This document shows, in pieces, positions 4,094 to 13,027 of a stretch of 14,769 bases of DNA. A program made the translations under genes and the position numbers. This DNA is from Escherichia coli (GTDB lineage: Bacteria > Pseudomonadota > Gammaproteobacteria > Enterobacterales > Enterobacteriaceae): the NCBI GenBank assembly GCA_005397905.1, contig GCA_005397905.1_4318.1. One strand, given 5' to 3'. The notes beneath the pieces were generated by a model. The model had not been told where the DNA came from, searched no databases, and saw nothing but the letters and a program-made list of their open reading frames with translations. How positions within the stretch are numbered: the first letter of the stretch is position 1; each line of letters opens with the position of its first letter.

Positions 4094-4176
4094 CGAGCCT
4101 AATACTAGTAGCATCGTTACCACTGTTTAGCTTTACCATCTTATACTTTATCGTAATGAATTAAGGAACTTATATA

Positions 4177-5313
4177 ATGGCAACTGCAAAGATTACCAAC
4201 GAACAACTTCGTGAAGAACTGGCAAATGGCATGACAAACAAAGAAATCGCAGAGAAATACGGAATGAACATTCGCAATGTTGAATTGCGTCGTAGTAAAT
4301 TGGCAAAATCCGGCGAGCTTCATGGAAACCCTGGGATTAAGAAGCTAGTTCCTGACGGCTATTTGGTCAAAGGGACTTCAACGATGATTGATGCGGAAGG
4401 TAACGAGAAGATCCGGTGGGTTAAGACCTCAATTGATAATGAGCGCCTTGAGGTTCTTATGGAGCAGGCTCGAGAAGCATTTTGCTCTGAGTTGCCAAAG
4501 GCAGTTCCATCTGAATCACCTAATGTTAACTTTGACGATAACACGCTTGCGATGTATCCGGTTTTTGATTTACACATTGGAGCAATGGCACACAAACATG
4601 AGTGCGGCGAAAACTACGACACAGCGACAGCCGAGAAGGTAATGAATGGATTCTTTGATTACGCCGTAGATAAGGCCCCAAACTCAAAGAATGCTGTATT
4701 GGTATTGGGTGGCGATTTCCTACATTACGATTCCCTGGAGGCTAAAACCCCGGCCTCAGGCCATATCTTAGACTCTGACAGTCGTTACGCTAAGATTGTT
4801 TATGTTGCAATCCGTTCAGTACGACGTGCAATTTCTCGAATGATGGAAAAGCATCAAGTCATTGATATTAAAGTAATAAGCGGAAATCACGACGAGGCTG
4901 GAATGGTTTGGCTCCGCGCTGCACTTGCTGCATTTTATGAATATGAGCCTCGCGTAAATGTTGATGTTAGCCCAGCTGCAATGATGATGACCAGCTTTGG
5001 AACGACGCTTATTGGATACACTCACGGGCACCAAATGCGGAAAGCCGATACTCGACTAACTGTTATGGCAACTGATTTTCGTAAGTTATTTGGTCAAAGT
5101 GAGTATGTTTACACACATAGTGGCCACTGGCATTCGCAGAAGATTACAGAAACAAACTTGGGAATTGATGAGGTTCATGGGCAGCTGGGAAGTCCTGATG
5201 CGTACTCCGCAAATGGCGGCTGGCGCTCTCAACGTCAAGCGGCAGTTATTGTCTACCATAAAGAATTCGGTGAAGTTGGGCGATTCATTTGTCGCCCTAA
5301 AATGTTTAGCTAA
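4177..5313 (+). CDS. N-terminal helix-turn-helix domain fused to a calcineurin-like metallophosphoesterase (Mre11/SbcD-type fold)
   Basis: 378 aa. HTH-like MTNKEIAEKYGMNIRNVELRRSKL at the N-terminus; phosphoesterase motifs in order: DLH (VFDLHIGAMAH), GDxxxxD (VLGGDFLHYD), GNHDE, THGH, GHWH. AAGGA RBS upstream. Confidence 0.8.
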   Translation: MATAKITNEQLREELANGMTNKEIAEKYGMNIRNVELRRSKLAKSGELHGNPGIKKLVPDGYLVKGTSTMIDAEGNEKIRWVKTSIDNERLEVLMEQAREAFCSELPKAVPSESPNVNFDDNTLAMYPVFDLHIGAMAHKHECGENYDTATAEKVMNGFFDYAVDKAPNSKNAVLVLGGDFLHYDSLEAKTPASGHILDSDSRYAKIVYVAIRSVRRAISRMMEKHQVIDIKVISGNHDEAGMVWLRAALAAFYEYEPRVNVDVSPAAMMMTSFGTTLIGYTHGHQMRKADTRLTVMATDFRKLFGQSEYVYTHSGHWHSQKITETNLGIDEVHGQLGSPDAYSANGGWRSQRQAAVIVYHKEFGEVGRFICRPKMFS

Positions 5314-5356
5314 TAGCGCTTTTTGTTAAAAAACCCCCAGGTTACTGGGGTATAAT
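5314..5356 (+). promoter_or_regulatory. TAGCAC-type promoter-like element (variant TAGCGC)
   Basis: TAGCGC 5314-5319 directly after the stop TAA 5311-5313; TTGTTA 5323-5328; hairpin CCCCAG-GTTA-CTGGGG (5335-5350) in the spacer; TATAAT 5351-5356. Confidence 0.55.
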
Positions 5357-5425: not shown

Positions 5426-5980
5426 ATGACCAAATTGTTTATACTGAATGGGCCAGCTGGGGTCGGCAAAGATACAATTGCTGACGTCATGGTTAGTTCT
5501 GGCGCTTGCTGTGAGAAGGTTTCTTTTAAGTCACCCGTGTTTGATGTGGCTAAGGGTATGTTATCAAGCGATGAATTTGATTGGTTTATTGAAAACTACA
5601 ACAATAGAGACGAGAAAGATAAACCTCAGAAAATTCTCGGAGGTAAAACTATTCGAGAGTTTATGATATGGATTAGCGAATCAGTAATGAAACCTGTTTT
5701 TGGTAATGATGTCTTCGGCAGGAGATTGGCTAGTTCACTTGGTGATGGTTGCTATATTTGTGCTGACGGTGGATTTGCTAGCGAGATTGAGCCACTGATC
5801 GACGCTGGTGTTAAGGTCACGTTAATCAGGTTGCATAGGGCAGGGTACACATTTTATGGCGATAGTCGCTCATATATTCACGGGGTGTGTGAAAGAGAGA
5901 TTGATGTTCATGTTGTTGATGGTGATATTAATGGAACATCAGCATTGGTAAGGCACGTAATAAATAGCACGAATTGCTAA
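5426..5980 (+). CDS. deoxynucleoside monophosphate kinase-like P-loop kinase
   Basis: 184 aa; Walker A LNGPAGVGKDT; the N-terminal stretch KLFILNGPAGVGKDTIADVMVS resembles the N-terminus of the T4 gene 1 dNMP kinase as I recall it. GGAGA RBS. Protein ends ...NSTNC with the stop TAA supplied by a TTGCTAA element. Confidence 0.65.
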   Translation: MTKLFILNGPAGVGKDTIADVMVSSGACCEKVSFKSPVFDVAKGMLSSDEFDWFIENYNNRDEKDKPQKILGGKTIREFMIWISESVMKPVFGNDVFGRRLASSLGDGCYICADGGFASEIEPLIDAGVKVTLIRLHRAGYTFYGDSRSYIHGVCEREIDVHVVDGDINGTSALVRHVINSTNC

Positions 5981-6046: not shown

Positions 6047-6223
6047 ATGACTAAAATGACTTACTGCACCAAGAACAACTCCAAGACACTGCCATTTACG
6101 GTTAACCAGCCTTACAATGCCGAGTATCAGGGTGACGGATACTACAAAATTTACGGCGACGATATGACGTGGATTTTAGCGCCGATTGATGGTTCGCTTG
6201 TTGAATTTATTATCGCTGACTAG
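6047..6223 (+). CDS. hypothetical small protein (58 aa)
   Basis: ATG 6047 with ACGAGGA about 7 nt upstream; MTKMTYCTKNNSKTLPFTVNQPYNAEYQGDGYYKIYGDDMTWILAPIDGSLVEFIIAD; followed by an intrinsic terminator. Below the track length cutoff. Confidence 0.5.
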   Translation: MTKMTYCTKNNSKTLPFTVNQPYNAEYQGDGYYKIYGDDMTWILAPIDGSLVEFIIAD

Positions 6224-7774: not shown

Positions 7775-9358
7775 TTACCCCAGCAGTCGCGGATTAATGT
7801 AAACCTTATCACCAATCAGGCAGGTGTAGTTTTTCTCATCAAGCATCGGAAGTAAATGGTCTTTAATCTTAGCCATTACGCCAGCCTGACCCTCAAACGG
7901 CCTAACCTTGCGTGCTGATTCATATAGTGAACGAAGTCCTACAACGCCCTTACTGTTCTTTCCTTGCTTAATCAATATGTCAATTAACTTGTTCATCTCT
8001 GCATTATCGCCAGCGTGACCAGCCGAACTAGCAGCAGAAAGGTAAGTTTTACTTTGTTCGTAAAACATGATAATTGCCTCTTGCATTGTCTCTAGGTCAA
8101 TTTGCCTTGACTTCAATGGCCGCTCATTATTCTTGCATGACCAGTTTCTTATTGTATGAAGAATTGCCGCCATTCGAATAACTTGCTTATCCATCTTGCC
8201 AAGAGCGCCACGCAGCATAGAGTGAGAGTATTTACCTCCATCCGCAAGGTGCGGCTCCATATCCTGGCGTGCTAGATTAAGATATCGCATAGCTGATTCT
8301 GAAATAGATAAATTAACTTGTGTTTCGTTCATAATGTTGTGAATCATTCTAAAGTAATCAGCTTTCAATTCGCCATCAACCGGTTCGTATGTCGACTCAC
8401 CTTTTTCATTAATAAAAACGCGATTTCCAATCATGGGGCGCTCCCTAACCAGCCAGAATCGCTCAGATACACCTATACCACGAGCACCAGCCTCCATAAT
8501 TGCATTGATTGTTTCATCCTGAGCTATTACAGCTATTGCGCCAAGCGCGGTAAACATCAAGTTGTTGTCAGCATTGGCGCGAGATATTGATATATTTCCA
8601 GAATCCCACGCCTTAAGAACTAACTCACTGTTTGTTTTCTTGCTGCCATCTCCGTAGGTCATCCCAAGCAATGAGTTAATTGCCGTTGCTTCGTCTGATA
8701 TTACCGCAAAGTTACCCTGTCGACTGTTTATTCGAGCCAGACCTTCAGGTGTTGTATCAGATACCGGAAAGACAATATCACACAGCTTTTCTAACTTCTC
8801 TTCTAAATCCTCTTTCTCCTCAAACAATGACGCCATTTCGGATGGCGACTTCTCCTGCTTCATCTCTTTCGCCAGCGCTGATAGCTTGGCCATAATCTTT
8901 TTTCTTTCACGCTTTCGCTGGTCATTGATTCGCTCAACCTCGGCTACCATTGGAGCTATTGCGAGTGAGTTAATGGCTGACTTACCAGTCGATGGTGGCT
9001 GGCTGGTTACTACGTACAGTGAGGTTGGTTGCTGCGTTCCGTGATACTCAACAGTAAAACGCCCTAGCATGGCAGCGGAAATACACCCCAGGAAATGCAT
9101 GTATGCGGAAGACTCTGGGAACTGAACAGATCGAGCGATATTGGATGAGAGTTTGCCAACAACATCAATATCATTTCCGAGTGAGATTACGGGATACTTG
9201 TCATTTGCAGCATCAATCTCCACTGGTGCTTTCCAGAATGATTGAGACTGGCGATAGCCATTTGCATTAATGGCGACTCGCAGTGGTGGGAGGTTGTCTG
9301 CGGCAGCAATTGCCATAACCTGTTCAACAGATAGTTTATCTTCGTTGAAATCAAACAT
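7775..9358 (-). CDS. P-loop NTPase of unknown function (527 aa), RecA/DnaB-like Walker A
   Basis: Walker A-like VVTSQPPSTGKSAI (about residues 115-128), Walker B-like FAVISDE (about 217-223), a highly charged predicted helix between them; GGAGAG RBS. N-terminal 43 aa and C-terminal 55 aa are homologous to the 181-aa ORF at 12482-13027. Confidence 0.8.
   Translation of the reverse strand: MFDFNEDKLSVEQVMAIAAADNLPPLRVAINANGYRQSQSFWKAPVEIDAANDKYPVISLGNDIDVVGKLSSNIARSVQFPESSAYMHFLGCISAAMLGRFTVEYHGTQQPTSLYVVTSQPPSTGKSAINSLAIAPMVAEVERINDQRKRERKKIMAKLSALAKEMKQEKSPSEMASLFEEKEDLEEKLEKLCDIVFPVSDTTPEGLARINSRQGNFAVISDEATAINSLLGMTYGDGSKKTNSELVLKAWDSGNISISRANADNNLMFTALGAIAVIAQDETINAIMEAGARGIGVSERFWLVRERPMIGNRVFINEKGESTYEPVDGELKADYFRMIHNIMNETQVNLSISESAMRYLNLARQDMEPHLADGGKYSHSMLRGALGKMDKQVIRMAAILHTIRNWSCKNNERPLKSRQIDLETMQEAIIMFYEQSKTYLSAASSAGHAGDNAEMNKLIDILIKQGKNSKGVVGLRSLYESARKVRPFEGQAGVMAKIKDHLLPMLDEKNYTCLIGDKVYINPRLLG
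9233..9262. repeat. 30-nt perfect inverted repeat, copy A (inside the NTPase gene)
   Basis: rc of 9233-9262 = AATGGCTATCGCCAGTCTCAATCATTCTGG, identical to 12584-12613, while flanking synonymous sites have diverged. Confidence 0.9.
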
Positions 9359-11960: not shown

Positions 11961-12482
11961 ATGTCAAATCGCATTCAACCAGTAAGCCTTGGTGATGTTA
12001 TCCGCTACATGGCTAAGCAGGCGCTTAAGGCCGACAATCGGACTTTCCATGTTCCAATCCACCTGATAGCTCGCCAGGTTTACGGGCTAACGTCTGATGA
12101 TATTGGTCGAATCAGCGCTGAGGATCTCGAGAGTGGCGGCAAATACAGTTTGGCAAAGTTGAAGGCTTCATATGTCTCTAACACAGTTGCCAGGATGCCA
12201 GAGATTCAGGAGGCGAACGTTCGGGCTAAGCTGTCAATCAAGGACGGAGACTTTGGGGATGATGTTGATGTTCGATGCGCATACATCACCTTGGTCGATG
12301 GGGCAATACAGACAGGAAAGAGAGTGATGGCCAACAACCAGGTAGCCGATAAGGCTGTAAGCGACTTTAAGGCTAGAATCCTCAAGCTGATGCCATCAGT
12401 GACTGAGTTTGAAGGTGATGAGATTACCGGAGCCATCAAAGCAATTAAGATGTACCAGGAAATGATTAAGGAGGCAAAATAA
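11961..12482 (+). CDS. hypothetical protein (173 aa), first gene behind the canonical promoter
   Basis: ATG with CAGGAG RBS; no recognisable motif. Confidence 0.65.
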   Translation: MSNRIQPVSLGDVIRYMAKQALKADNRTFHVPIHLIARQVYGLTSDDIGRISAEDLESGGKYSLAKLKASYVSNTVARMPEIQEANVRAKLSIKDGDFGDDVDVRCAYITLVDGAIQTGKRVMANNQVADKAVSDFKARILKLMPSVTEFEGDEITGAIKAIKMYQEMIKEAK

Positions 12483-13027
12483 TGGGGATGTTTGATTTTA
12501 ACGAAGATAAGCTAACTAATGATGAGATTATGAAGATTGCCATGCGGGATGGACTTCCTCCGCTACGGGTTGCAATCAACGCTAATGGCTATCGCCAGTC
12601 TCAATCATTCTGGTGTAGTGTTGAGGAGTTGCTCAGCGCAAAGCTCAACAGCAAGTCTGGCGTAGTTATGTGTAAGATTCACGGACAGAGCAGGAATGGC
12701 AAGGGGGTTGTCGGAATTCGATCAACATATGAAGCGCTGAGAAAGGTCAAGCCATTCGCCGGACTCAACGGAGTCATGCATGACCTGAAAAATAACATCC
12801 TGCCATCGTTACAGGACGCAGGAATCATCTGCTTAATCGGGGATAAGATTTACGTGCATCCATACATCGTTGGCATGCATGCGATAGAAGTTGAAGAGTG
12901 GTGCGACACCTGGGCTGTTGATGAGCATGCTAGTAGACTACCATACCACTTACGGTACGACGAAGATGAGGTAGAGAAGGCGATTGAGTTCTACCGGAAA
13001 GCTAAATCACTCCTGACCGGTAAATAG
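12482..13027 (+). CDS. hypothetical protein (181 aa), truncated paralog of the 527-aa NTPase lacking the P-loop core
   Basis: MFDFNEDKL...LPPLRVAINANGYRQSQSFW matches the NTPase N-terminus (20 consecutive residues identical); KGVVGIRSTYEALRKVKPF...CLIGDKIYVHP is about 55% identical to the NTPase C-terminus; no Walker motifs. AAGGAGG RBS; stop TAG is part of a TAGCAC element. Confidence 0.75.
   Translation: MGMFDFNEDKLTNDEIMKIAMRDGLPPLRVAINANGYRQSQSFWCSVEELLSAKLNSKSGVVMCKIHGQSRNGKGVVGIRSTYEALRKVKPFAGLNGVMHDLKNNILPSLQDAGIICLIGDKIYVHPYIVGMHAIEVEEWCDTWAVDEHASRLPYHLRYDEDEVEKAIEFYRKAKSLLTGK
12584..12613. repeat. 30-nt perfect inverted repeat, copy B (inside the paralog gene)
   Basis: AATGGCTATCGCCAGTCTCAATCATTCTGG at 12584-12613, in inverted orientation relative to 9233-9262. 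Confidence 0.9.

What the first reader, a model, noticed from the sequence alone, without database searches (positions are those of the whole stretch)
4177..5313. Helix-turn-helix domain fused to a metallophosphoesterase
All five calcineurin-like phosphoesterase motifs are present in the canonical order, but they are preceded by about 110 residues with a clear HTH (TNKEIAEKYGMNIRNVELRRSKL), and there is no adjacent SbcC/Rad50-like partner. A DNA-binding domain tethered to an Mre11/SbcD-fold enzyme suggests a DNA-targeted nuclease or phosphatase, for example host DNA degradation, repair-pathway interference or a transcription factor with enzymatic activity.
Basis: partly seen in the sequence, partly recalled or inferred. 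Interest (0 to 1): 0.55.

Follow-up and report, generated by a model that had tools for sequence, protein, structure and literature searches.

The report
Phage T1-type HTH-tethered phosphoesterase nuclease
This gene is the Rtp61/T1 gp16 "DNA repair exonuclease" of T1-like coliphages: a DNA-binding helix-turn-helix joined to an Mre11/PolD-DP1-like metal-dependent phosphodiesterase that has no Rad50/SbcC partner. It is common and already catalogued in phages but has never been characterised, and it is a plausible candidate for the unidentified enzyme that degrades host DNA in T1.

Summary
ORF 4177-5313(+) encodes 378 aa with a tri-helical HTH (res 8-44), a linker, a family-specific beta-hairpin+helix (61-105) and a complete metallophosphoesterase (MPE) domain (120-378). 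The metal ligands of all five motifs are invariant in 145 diverse homologues.

There is no SbcC/Rad50 gene in the window, in the complete Rtp genome, or in 88 related loci.

The gene is not new. It is 97.6% identical to Rtp61, 88% to T1 gp16, and belongs to PHROG 704. It is a core gene of Drexlerviridae and occurs in about 4% of sequenced phages. I found no experimental study.

The best reading is a stand-alone, HTH-tethered DNA exo/endonuclease at the end of the early DNA-metabolism operon. A role in host-DNA breakdown and nucleotide salvage is plausible, because a dNMP kinase lies immediately downstream and the T1 host-degrading enzyme is still unidentified. That role is unproven. The TAGCA-N5-TGCTA dyad is probably not its target.

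The parts
4163..4167 (+). Shine-Dalgarno-like AAGGA, 9 nt before the ATG
   Evidence: Read directly from the sequence.
4177..5313 (+). CDS, 378 aa: the HTH-MPE protein, orthologue of Rtp61 / T1 gp16, member of PHROG 704
   Evidence: PHROG 704 at E 1.3e-154, full length; 97.6% aa identity to Rtp61; 88% to T1 gp16.
4177..4311 (+). N-terminal tri-helical HTH domain (res 1-45). Helices are 8-16, 21-28 and 32-44. The recognition helix is IRNVELRRSKLAK, nt 4270-4308.
4312..4356 (+). Linker (res 46-60) with lower model confidence
   Evidence: pLDDT about 73-76 in the full model and below 50 for res 51-54 in the N-terminal model.
4357..4491 (+). Family-specific beta-hairpin (62-86, consensus KGxSTLYDxDGxxxxQWVKT, with G75 and W81 at least 90% conserved) plus helix 88-104
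   Evidence: Alignments A1/A2; AF2 pLDDT about 90; no separate structural match; retained in the HTH-less Campylobacter CP81 homologue.
4534..5310 (+). Binuclear metallophosphoesterase domain (res 120-378). There is no capping domain and no C-terminal helix-loop-helix.
4567..4575 (+). MPE motif I, D131-L-H133
   Evidence: invariant in A2.
4711..4731 (+). MPE motif II, G179-D180-F-L-H183-Y-D185 (His at D+3)
   Evidence: D180 invariant, and G179, H183 and D185 at least 90% conserved.
4747..4785 (+). Family-specific conserved loop TPxSGHxLDxDxR (T191 invariant; L198, D199, D201 and R203 at least 90% conserved)
   Evidence: Its role is not known; I infer it shapes the substrate site.
4882..4893 (+). 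MPE motif III, G236-N237-H238-D239
5023..5031 (+). MPE motif IV, H283-G284-H285
5122..5133 (+). MPE motif V, G316-H317-W-H319
5314..5356 (+). Boundary element right after the stop codon: dyad TAGCG-N5-TGTTA (5314-5328), GC hairpin CCCCAG-gtta-CTGGGG (5335-5350), then TATAAT (5351-5356). It is probably a terminator for the MPE operon plus a promoter for the next unit.
   Evidence: T1 has the same arrangement, with an annotated rho-independent terminator after gp16.
5426..5980 (+). Context: deoxynucleoside monophosphate kinase gene immediately downstream
   Evidence: PHROG 139 at E 1.2e-39. The same neighbour occurs in Yersinia phage vB_YenM_126 and Thermus phage Lalka27b.
295..2710 (+). Context: helicase (295-2289) and VRR-NUC nuclease (2291-2710) on the same strand upstream, in the same apparent early DNA-metabolism unit
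   Evidence: Rtp and T1 annotation.

Best explanation
The gene encodes a stand-alone, metal-dependent DNA phosphodiesterase with three modules.

1. An N-terminal tri-helical HTH on a flexible linker, which I infer holds the enzyme on DNA.
2. A family-specific beta-hairpin+helix that always accompanies the catalytic domain. I infer it stands in for the capping or OB modules of Mre11 and DP1.
3. A binuclear metallophosphoesterase domain of the nuclease structural class (PolD-DP1 / Mre11 / SbcD).

I infer that it cuts DNA as a 3'-5' exonuclease and/or single-strand endonuclease, releasing 5'-dNMPs, and that it works without any Rad50/SbcC-type ATPase.

It is the last gene of the early helicase/VRR-NUC DNA-metabolism unit of a polymerase-less T1-like phage. 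My preferred specific role is exonucleolytic breakdown of host DNA to feed nucleotide salvage through the dNMP kinase encoded immediately downstream. This role is less certain, about 0.3 on its own.

Shown: the ORF, the motifs, the fold, the HTH, the absence of a partner, the synteny and the family distribution. Inferred: nuclease activity, DNA as substrate, the HTH function and the biological role.
For: The catalytic site is complete and invariant.

The HTH fold and profile match DNA-binding domains.

The T1 orthologue is annotated from HHpred as 99% SbcD-like. The protein matches PHROG 704 'DNA repair exonuclease' at E 1e-154.

No SbcC/Rad50 gene and no DNA polymerase gene are present in Rtp. 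No partner family is conserved across 88 loci; the largest neighbour family occurs in 12.

Nucleotide-salvage or house-cleaning genes recur as neighbours:
- dNMP kinase here, in Yersinia phage vB_YenM_126 and in Thermus phage Lalka27b.
- PNKP-type HAD phosphatase, dATP/dGTP diphosphohydrolase-like, DUF6378 or dNMP kinase within 2.5 kb in 19 of 88 loci, 8 of 35 lineages.
- The same tendency is noted across Drexlerviridae in PMC13164509.

T1 and TLS degrade the host genome and reuse its nucleotides, and the responsible gene is unidentified (PMC11447400).

Against: No activity has been measured for any member of this family.

Sequence-profile similarity to SbcD and to Bxb1 gp47 is negligible.

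The salvage-gene neighbourhood is present in only about a fifth of loci. In Jersey the gene sits among tail genes.

Some relatives lie in contigs with integrases. Wholesale host-DNA destruction is less expected in temperate phages.

The HTH is missing in the Campylobacter CP81 homologue, so it is not needed for the core activity.

How the phage would spare its own DNA is unexplained.
Confidence: 0.5

Rival explanations
1. It is a replication-associated processing or editing exonuclease. Like mycobacteriophage Bxb1 gp47, it would be needed for phage DNA replication itself, for example by trimming 3' ends, flaps or hairpins at forks or recombination-dependent replication intermediates alongside the phage helicase, primase and VRR-NUC. 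It would not be for host DNA breakdown.
Against: T1-like phages encode no polymerase for it to proofread. It lacks the DP1 OB fold, and no DP2-like partner exists. It belongs to a different PHROG from gp47. The phage already has a RecE-like exonuclease/Erf/SSB recombination set.
Confidence: 0.25
2. It is a small-molecule phosphodiesterase or phosphatase, for example one that destroys cyclic or linear nucleotide immune signals or other nucleotides as a counter-defence. The HTH would serve regulation or protein-protein contacts.
Against: The best matches are nucleases. The DNA-binding-type HTH is conserved across most of the family. There are no PADLOC hits, although that library does not hold anti-defence genes. 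No evidence links it to any defence system. Core-gene status in a whole phage family is unusual for an anti-defence accessory gene.
Confidence: 0.1
3. It is a sequence-specific transcription factor with an enzymatic domain. The LuxR-like HTH would bind the TAGCA-N5-TGCTA dyads centred near -42 of the phage promoters, which is the first reader's EMSA idea.
For: Eleven dyad sites lie in the window at a fixed distance (about 22 nt) upstream of -10-like hexamers, against a shuffle mean of 2.1 strand-hits where 22 are observed. One copy lies directly after this gene. LuxR-type activators bind dyads near -42 (general knowledge, not tested here).
Against: Jersey's HTH-MPE has a near-identical recognition helix, but its whole genome lacks the dyad. 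T1 and Rtp share the dyad while their HTHs are only about 55-66% identical. The HTH lacks the fourth (dimerisation) helix of GerE/LuxR domains. A dedicated HTH regulator (Rtp52/T1 gp23) is encoded next to the helicase. All catalytic residues are invariant, so the enzyme is the selected function.
Confidence: 0.05
4. It is a protein Ser/Thr phosphatase of the lambda-PP (PPP) type with a regulatory N-terminal domain. This is the refutation case named by the first reader.
For: It shares the superfamily motifs.
Confidence: 0.02

Closest known systems
Rtp61 / T1 gp16 (CPTT1_064) / TLS gp66, PHROG 704 'DNA repair exonuclease'
   Same: This is the same gene: 97.6% aa identity to Rtp61, 88% to T1 gp16, and a full-length PHROG 704 match. 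It occupies the same position between the helicase/VRR-NUC block and the lysis cassette.
   Different: Nothing essential differs. The N-terminal 55 residues are a different allele from T1's, about 55% identical against about 95% for the rest. All names for these genes are computational; I found no experiments.
Mre11 / SbcD nuclease subunits (with Rad50 / SbcC)
   Different: It has no capping domain, no C-terminal helix-loop-helix for Rad50/SbcC binding, and no SbcC/Rad50 gene in the genome. It carries an N-terminal HTH and a beta-hairpin module instead. Profile similarity to E. coli SbcD is nil.
Archaeal PolD small subunit DP1 (3'-5' proofreading exonuclease, PDB 5IHE)
   Different: There is no OB fold, only a two-stranded hairpin plus a helix. 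There is no DP2 partner and no phage polymerase at all. Sequence identity is 12%.
Mycobacteriophage stand-alone MPEs: Bxb1 gp47 (RDF, required for replication, weak 3'-5' exonuclease) and A10ZJ24 Gp48 (host-genome disruption)
   Same: These are phage-encoded, partner-less MPEs whose predicted structures also hit Mre11, DP1 and LpxH first (PMC11795197). They sit in DNA-replication gene blocks. Motifs III-V are collinear with similar spacing.
   Different: They belong to a different family (PHROG 221 against 704/284). They are about 255 aa with motif I at the N-terminus, so they have no HTH and no hairpin module. Pairwise E is 0.11.
LuxR/FixJ/GerE, sigma-70 region 4 and resolvase-type HTH domains
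   Same: The fold is tri-helical HTH and there is family-level sequence similarity.
   Different: The fourth helix of GerE-type domains is missing. The domain is fused to an enzyme rather than to a receiver or ligand-binding domain. This individual sequence scores below the Pfam thresholds.

Membership tests
Calcineurin-like metallophosphoesterase superfamily | Five motifs in order: DxH / GD / GNH[DE] / H / GHxH | tested here: met
   D131xH133, G179D180, G236N237H238D239, H283, G316H317xH319. These are invariant or nearly invariant in 145 homologues.
Calcineurin-like metallophosphoesterase superfamily | MPE beta-sandwich fold | tested here: met
Calcineurin-like metallophosphoesterase superfamily | Pfam PF00149 at or above the gathering score | tested here: not met
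   It scores 19.2 bits against a cut-off of 21.5. All relatives tested are also sub-threshold. The family is invisible to Pfam-based annotation, although its structure and motifs are unambiguous.
PHROG 704 (phage 'DNA repair exonuclease') | Full-length match to the family profile | tested here: met
   E 1.3e-154, residues 4-377 on profile positions 2-389 of 390.
Mre11 / SbcD | Capping domain following the nuclease domain | tested here: not met
Mre11 / SbcD | C-terminal helix-loop-helix that binds the Rad50/SbcC coiled coil | tested here: not met
   The protein ends at residue 378 with beta-strands and a 4-residue helix.
Mre11 / SbcD | A Rad50/SbcC ATPase gene in the same operon or genome | tested here: not met
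   None is present in the window, in the complete Rtp genome, or in 88 related loci.
Mre11 / SbcD | Sequence-profile similarity to SbcD | tested here: inconclusive
   hhalign of the family profile against the single E. coli SbcD sequence aligns only motif III, with probability 2%. The T1 GenBank note reports HHpred 99% to SbcD 4LTY. That result is consistent with superfamily-level homology only.
PolD DP1 / eukaryotic B-subunits | OB-fold domain preceding the PDE domain | tested here: not met
   Only a two-stranded hairpin (62-86) and one helix precede the MPE. The N-terminal model gives no OB-fold match.
PolD DP1 / eukaryotic B-subunits | A cognate polymerase catalytic subunit | tested here: not met
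   No DNA polymerase gene is annotated in Rtp, or in the part of T1 that I read. PMC11447400 states that T1 and TLS lack polymerase genes.
Bxb1 gp47-type phage MPE (PHROG 221) | Match to the family profile / significant pairwise similarity | tested here: not met
   gp47 hits PHROG 221 and 20266, not 704 or 284. BLASTP E is 0.11 and hhalign probability is 8.7%.
LuxR/GerE-type (tetra-helical) HTH | HTH fold with DNA-binding-domain similarity | tested here: met
LuxR/GerE-type (tetra-helical) HTH | Fourth (dimerisation) helix; Pfam GerE at or above threshold | tested here: not met
   Only three helices precede the linker. GerE scores 16 bits against a cut-off of 23.5 for this protein.
LuxR/GerE-type (tetra-helical) HTH | Actual DNA binding | not testable with these tools
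   This needs EMSA or footprinting.
PPP Ser/Thr protein phosphatases (lambda-PP) | GDxHG, GDxVDRG and GNHE signatures, and closest fold | tested here: not met

The most novel reading that the evidence does not exclude
This HTH-MPE (T1 gp16 / Rtp61) is the long-sought nuclease that turns the host chromosome into mononucleotides in T1-type infections. The function was described genetically in 1981, but according to PMC11447400 it has never been assigned to a gene. In this reading the HTH and hairpin modules replace the Rad50 partner that Mre11-class nucleases normally need, and the family performs this salvage role in the roughly 4% of sequenced phages that carry it.
Probability: 0.2. Interest if true: 0.55.

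Novelty: new member of a known kind. Interest (0 to 1): 0.33.

Why it matters
The gene is a core component of Drexlerviridae (508 of 522 genomes, PMC13164509). Relatives occur in 2,049 of 50,697 phage records and in about 4,700 protein clusters at 50% identity. Yet no member has been studied, and annotations range from 'oxidoreductase' to 'DNA polymerase II'.

If it is a Rad50-independent Mre11-class nuclease, it would show how a minimal DNA-binding module can substitute for the ATPase partner. If it is the T1 host-DNA-degrading enzyme, it would close an old gap in T1 biology. That would also bear on transduction by T1-like phages and on defence systems that sense host-DNA breakdown products.

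For this window specifically, however, it is an ordinary, already catalogued orthologue.

Tried and rejected
- **Direct sequence search of the PDB.** The single protein and the full family profile gave no MPE hits, only HTH hits. The enzyme domain is too divergent for sequence methods.
- **hhalign against single sequences.** The family profile against E. coli SbcD and Bxb1 gp47 aligned only single motifs, which is uninformative.
- **The search for related loci.** A 12-sequence alignment, A4, worked.
- **afdb50 fold library.** It was not available.
- **Promoter scan.** It found fewer sigma-70-like sites than shuffles did and none near the gene, so operon structure rests on gene order, the hairpin after the stop codon and the T1 annotation.
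- **Literature.** Ten searches found no functional study of this family. The CRISPRi-ART phage screens, the Metis paper and the PUA-Cal-HAD paper contain nothing on T1-like nucleases. Savinov 2012 (PMC3273658) is not held.
- **Integrase search in the 80 IMG/VR loci.** It found none. Integrases were seen only in two metagenomic contigs.
- **Protein phosphatase.** Rejected on motif and fold evidence.
- **Membership of Mre11/SbcD or of DP1.** Rejected because the defining accessory domains and partners are absent.
- **Binding of the TAGCA dyad.** Considered unlikely on the Jersey and T1 comparison.

Full report
**What the window is.** The 1,137-nt region matches T1-like coliphages at 86-92% nucleotide identity (DTL, IME253, Rtp, ACG-M12). 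The gene order in the window is helicase, VRR-NUC, small ORFs, this gene, dNMP kinase, SH3-like DUF7244, holin/endolysin/spanin, then a leftward DUF3987 helicase. That is the order in Rtp and T1. The ORF is the orthologue of Rtp61 (97.6% aa identity) and of T1 gp16 (88%).

**Observation check.** ORF 4177-5313(+) has a plausible RBS (AAGGA, 9 nt upstream) and encodes 378 aa.
- All five metallophosphoesterase motifs are present in order.
- In an alignment of 145 homologues taken from 1.84 billion cluster representatives, D131, H133, D180, N237, H238, H283 and H319 are invariant. H317, G179, H183, D185 and D239 are at least 90% conserved.
- The quoted HTH string forms helices 2 and 3 of a three-helix bundle in the AlphaFold model (helices 8-16, 21-28, 32-44).

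For this one sequence every Pfam hit (Metallophos, GerE, Sigma70_r4_2, HTH_24) is below its curated threshold. The family context settles the matter:
- Homologues reach Sigma70_r4_2 at 1.5e-9 and GerE at 2.4e-8.
- The N-terminal family profile hits RhlR (1.2e-4), GerE (8e-4), NarL and VraR in the PDB.
- NCBIfam gives weak hits to the HTHs of TtrR, FixJ and UhpA.

**Anatomy.** The roughly 119 residues before the enzyme are four segments, not one domain.
- The HTH is residues 1-45.
- A lower-confidence linker is 46-60.
- A strongly conserved beta-hairpin is 62-86 (consensus KGxSTLYDxDGxxxxQWVKT, with G75 and W81 at least 90% conserved), followed by a helix at 88-104.
- A variable spacer is 106-119.

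The hairpin+helix has no separate structural match. It stays with the enzyme even in the 317-aa Campylobacter CP81 homologue, which has no HTH. The conserved core is therefore hairpin+helix plus MPE, and the HTH is a common accessory. Of 145 homologues, 143 have at least 66 residues before the W81 column.

The MPE domain (120-378) carries a family-specific conserved loop TPxSGHxLDxDxR (191-203) between motifs II and III. It ends only 59 residues after motif V.

This favours a nuclease-type MPE and excludes a lambda-PP-like phosphatase. The margin over small-molecule phosphodiesterases is modest. At sequence level the domain is an outlier: there is no MPE hit in the PDB by phmmer or profile, and Pfam Metallophos is sub-threshold in all relatives tested.

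**Partner question.** No SbcC/Rad50-like gene exists in the window or anywhere in the Rtp genome. Rtp also lacks a DNA polymerase but has a separate RecE-like exonuclease/Erf/SSB set.

I clustered all ORFs from 88 loci that carry a family member: 80 IMG/VR contigs plus annotated phages. No neighbour family occurs in more than 12 loci. The protein also lacks the Mre11/SbcD capping domain and the C-terminal helix-loop-helix that binds Rad50/SbcC. It is therefore a stand-alone enzyme. It is not a member of the Mre11/SbcD family or of the DP1 family, even though it probably works like their catalytic cores.

**Distribution and prior knowledge.**
- The family has about 4,700 clusters at 50% identity with E < 1e-3.
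- tblastn finds it in 2,049 of 50,697 phage records. These include Drexlerviridae, Jersey-like phages, Vibrio, Rhodobacter, Campylobacter, Thermus and Flavobacterium phages and cyanophage Pam1.
- Deposited names include DNA repair exonuclease, phosphoesterase, oxidoreductase, phosphatase, winged-HTH protein and DNA polymerase II.
- T1 gp16 is annotated 'exonuclease' from an HHpred match to SbcD. TLS gp66 is called 'proof-reading exonuclease'.
- PMC13164509 reports the gene as persistent in 508 of 522 Drexlerviridae genomes, just upstream of the lysis cassette.
- Ten literature searches found no experimental work on any member.

The finding is therefore an already catalogued but uncharacterised gene.

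**Clues to function.**

(a) *Operon position.* The gene is last in the rightward block that starts with the helicase and VRR-NUC nuclease. A GC hairpin follows the stop codon (5335-5350). T1 has an annotated terminator at the same place.

(b) *Synteny.*
- A dNMP kinase lies immediately downstream here.
- The same holds in the unrelated Yersinia phage vB_YenM_126, which also has a PNK/3'-phosphatase there.
- It also holds in Thermus phage Lalka27b, which has a nucleotidase there.
- In the environmental loci, PNKP-type HAD phosphatase, dATP/dGTP-diphosphohydrolase-like, DUF6378 or dNMP kinase genes lie within 2.5 kb in 19 of 88 loci, 8 of 35 lineages, often directly adjacent.
- PMC13164509 notes the same tendency in Drexlerviridae.

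(c) *An open question in T1 biology.* PMC11447400 states that T1 and TLS degrade the host genome and reuse its nucleotides, and that the responsible early gene has not been identified.

(d) *Precedents.*
- Bxb1 gp47, another partner-less phage MPE, has Mre11, DP1 and LpxH as its top structural matches. [quoted passage not shown]
- The related A10ZJ24 Gp48 disrupts host genome integrity (PMC12287305).
- Those proteins belong to a different family, PHROG 221, and lack the HTH.

Together these support a DNA nuclease acting in phage DNA metabolism. Host-DNA breakdown for salvage is the most attractive specific role, and replication-intermediate processing is the main alternative.

Three points count against the salvage role:
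- The synteny holds in only about a fifth of loci.
- In Jersey the gene sits in a small island among tail genes.
- Two relatives lie near integrases.

**The HTH and the TAGCAC dyad.** The window holds 11 sites of TAGCA-N5-TG(C/T)TA. That gives 22 strand-hits against a shuffle mean of 2.1 and a maximum of 7. Each site is oriented with transcription and followed after about 22 nt by a -10-like hexamer. One copy begins one base after this gene's stop codon. The element is conserved in Rtp and T1. It looks like a phage promoter or operator with the dyad centred near -42.

Two comparisons argue that it is not this protein's target:
- Jersey's orthologue has almost the same recognition helix (RRNVQLRSARLAKKG against IRNVELRRSKLAKSG), but its 43-kb genome has the dyad only at chance level.
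- T1 and Rtp share the dyad although their HTH modules have diverged.

A dedicated regulator (Rtp52/T1 gp23) is the likelier binder. I infer that the HTH gives general DNA tethering or contacts a conserved host component.

**Mosaicism.** Per-domain identities show recombination at the domain boundaries (see also the partial matches).
- Against the T1 group, the HTH+linker is 63-66% identical while the hairpin and MPE are 93-95% identical.
- Against a second group of 70 clusters, which includes Bas03 JulesPiccard, residues 1-105 are 93-95% identical while the MPE is only 64% identical.

The modules are therefore exchangeable between lineages. That fits a generic tether better than a co-evolved, sequence-specific partnership.

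**Verdict.** The protein is a member of a known, widespread and uncharacterised phage family (PHROG 704; T1 gp16). It works most probably like the catalytic core of Mre11/SbcD/DP1, but it is not a member of those families. Interest is moderate to low for this window, with a testable lead on the unidentified T1 host-DNA-degrading activity.

Noticed in passing
window 207, 2708, 3401, 5314, 5965, 13025, 13655 (+) and 9417, 10199, 10845, 11317 (-): There are eleven copies of the dyad TAGCA-N5-TG(C/T)TA (full form ATAGCACnnnTTGYTAAA). Each is oriented with the local genes and followed about 22 nt later by a -10-like hexamer. I counted 22 strand-hits against a shuffle mean of 2.1. The element is conserved in Rtp and T1 and absent from Jersey. 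It looks like a phage-specific promoter/operator with the dyad centred near -42. The binding factor is unknown; Rtp52/gp23 is a candidate.
   Followed up: partly
window 4177-5313, breakpoints near nt 4340 and 4510: The gene is a mosaic. The HTH+linker, the hairpin+helix and the MPE domain have different closest relatives among Drexlerviridae. Against the T1 group the HTH is 66% and the MPE 95% identical. Against the Bas03-like group residues 1-105 are 93-95% and the MPE 64% identical. This implies recombination at the domain boundaries.
   Followed up: partly
window 12482-13027(+) versus 7775-9358(-): The 181-aa ORF is an internally deleted paralogue of the 527-aa DUF3987 helicase-like protein. 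Its N-terminal 51 aa are 69% identical and a 95-aa stretch is 40% identical to the C-terminus of the larger protein, with the central ATPase missing. This also shows up as inverted DNA repeats 9233-9358 / 12488-12613.
   Followed up: partly
L005 (RcAqua), L006 (Vibrio 49E25-1), L009 (Pam1), L010 (Thermus Lalka27b), L011 (Yersinia vB_YenM_126), L004, and the window: In very distant phages the MPE gene repeatedly lies within 1-2 kb of lysis genes (holin, endolysin, Amidase_2, M23 peptidase, lysozyme). The reason is unknown; it may only reflect a module boundary.
   Followed up: partly
window 5426-5980 and 6047-6223: Both a dNMP kinase and the stand-alone SH3-like DUF7244 protein sit between the MPE gene and the holin. 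PMC13164509 reports only seven instances in which such kinases (dNMP kinase or polynucleotide kinase) occur together with the SH3 gene.
   Followed up: no
phage records MG065688.1 ('Campylobacter phage A110b') and OR786094.1 ('Streptococcus phage MBBL140'): Two records labelled as Campylobacter and Streptococcus phages carry T1-like versions of this gene. The first is 91% nt identical over nt 1-331, and the second is 57% aa identical over the full length, in genomes of 44-49 kb. They are probably T1-like contaminants or mislabelled hosts.
   Followed up: no
whole family: No member tested reaches the Pfam Metallophos gathering score, and the precomputed Pfam column is empty for all 120 close homologues. 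The family is invisible to Pfam-based annotation, which probably explains the scatter of product names in GenBank.
   Followed up: partly
L004 10638-11276 (metagenomic contig with an HTH-MPE relative): A QueC-like gene lies near the MPE relative, which hints at 7-deazaguanine DNA modification in that phage. This could bear on how some carriers protect their own DNA from nucleases.
   Followed up: no
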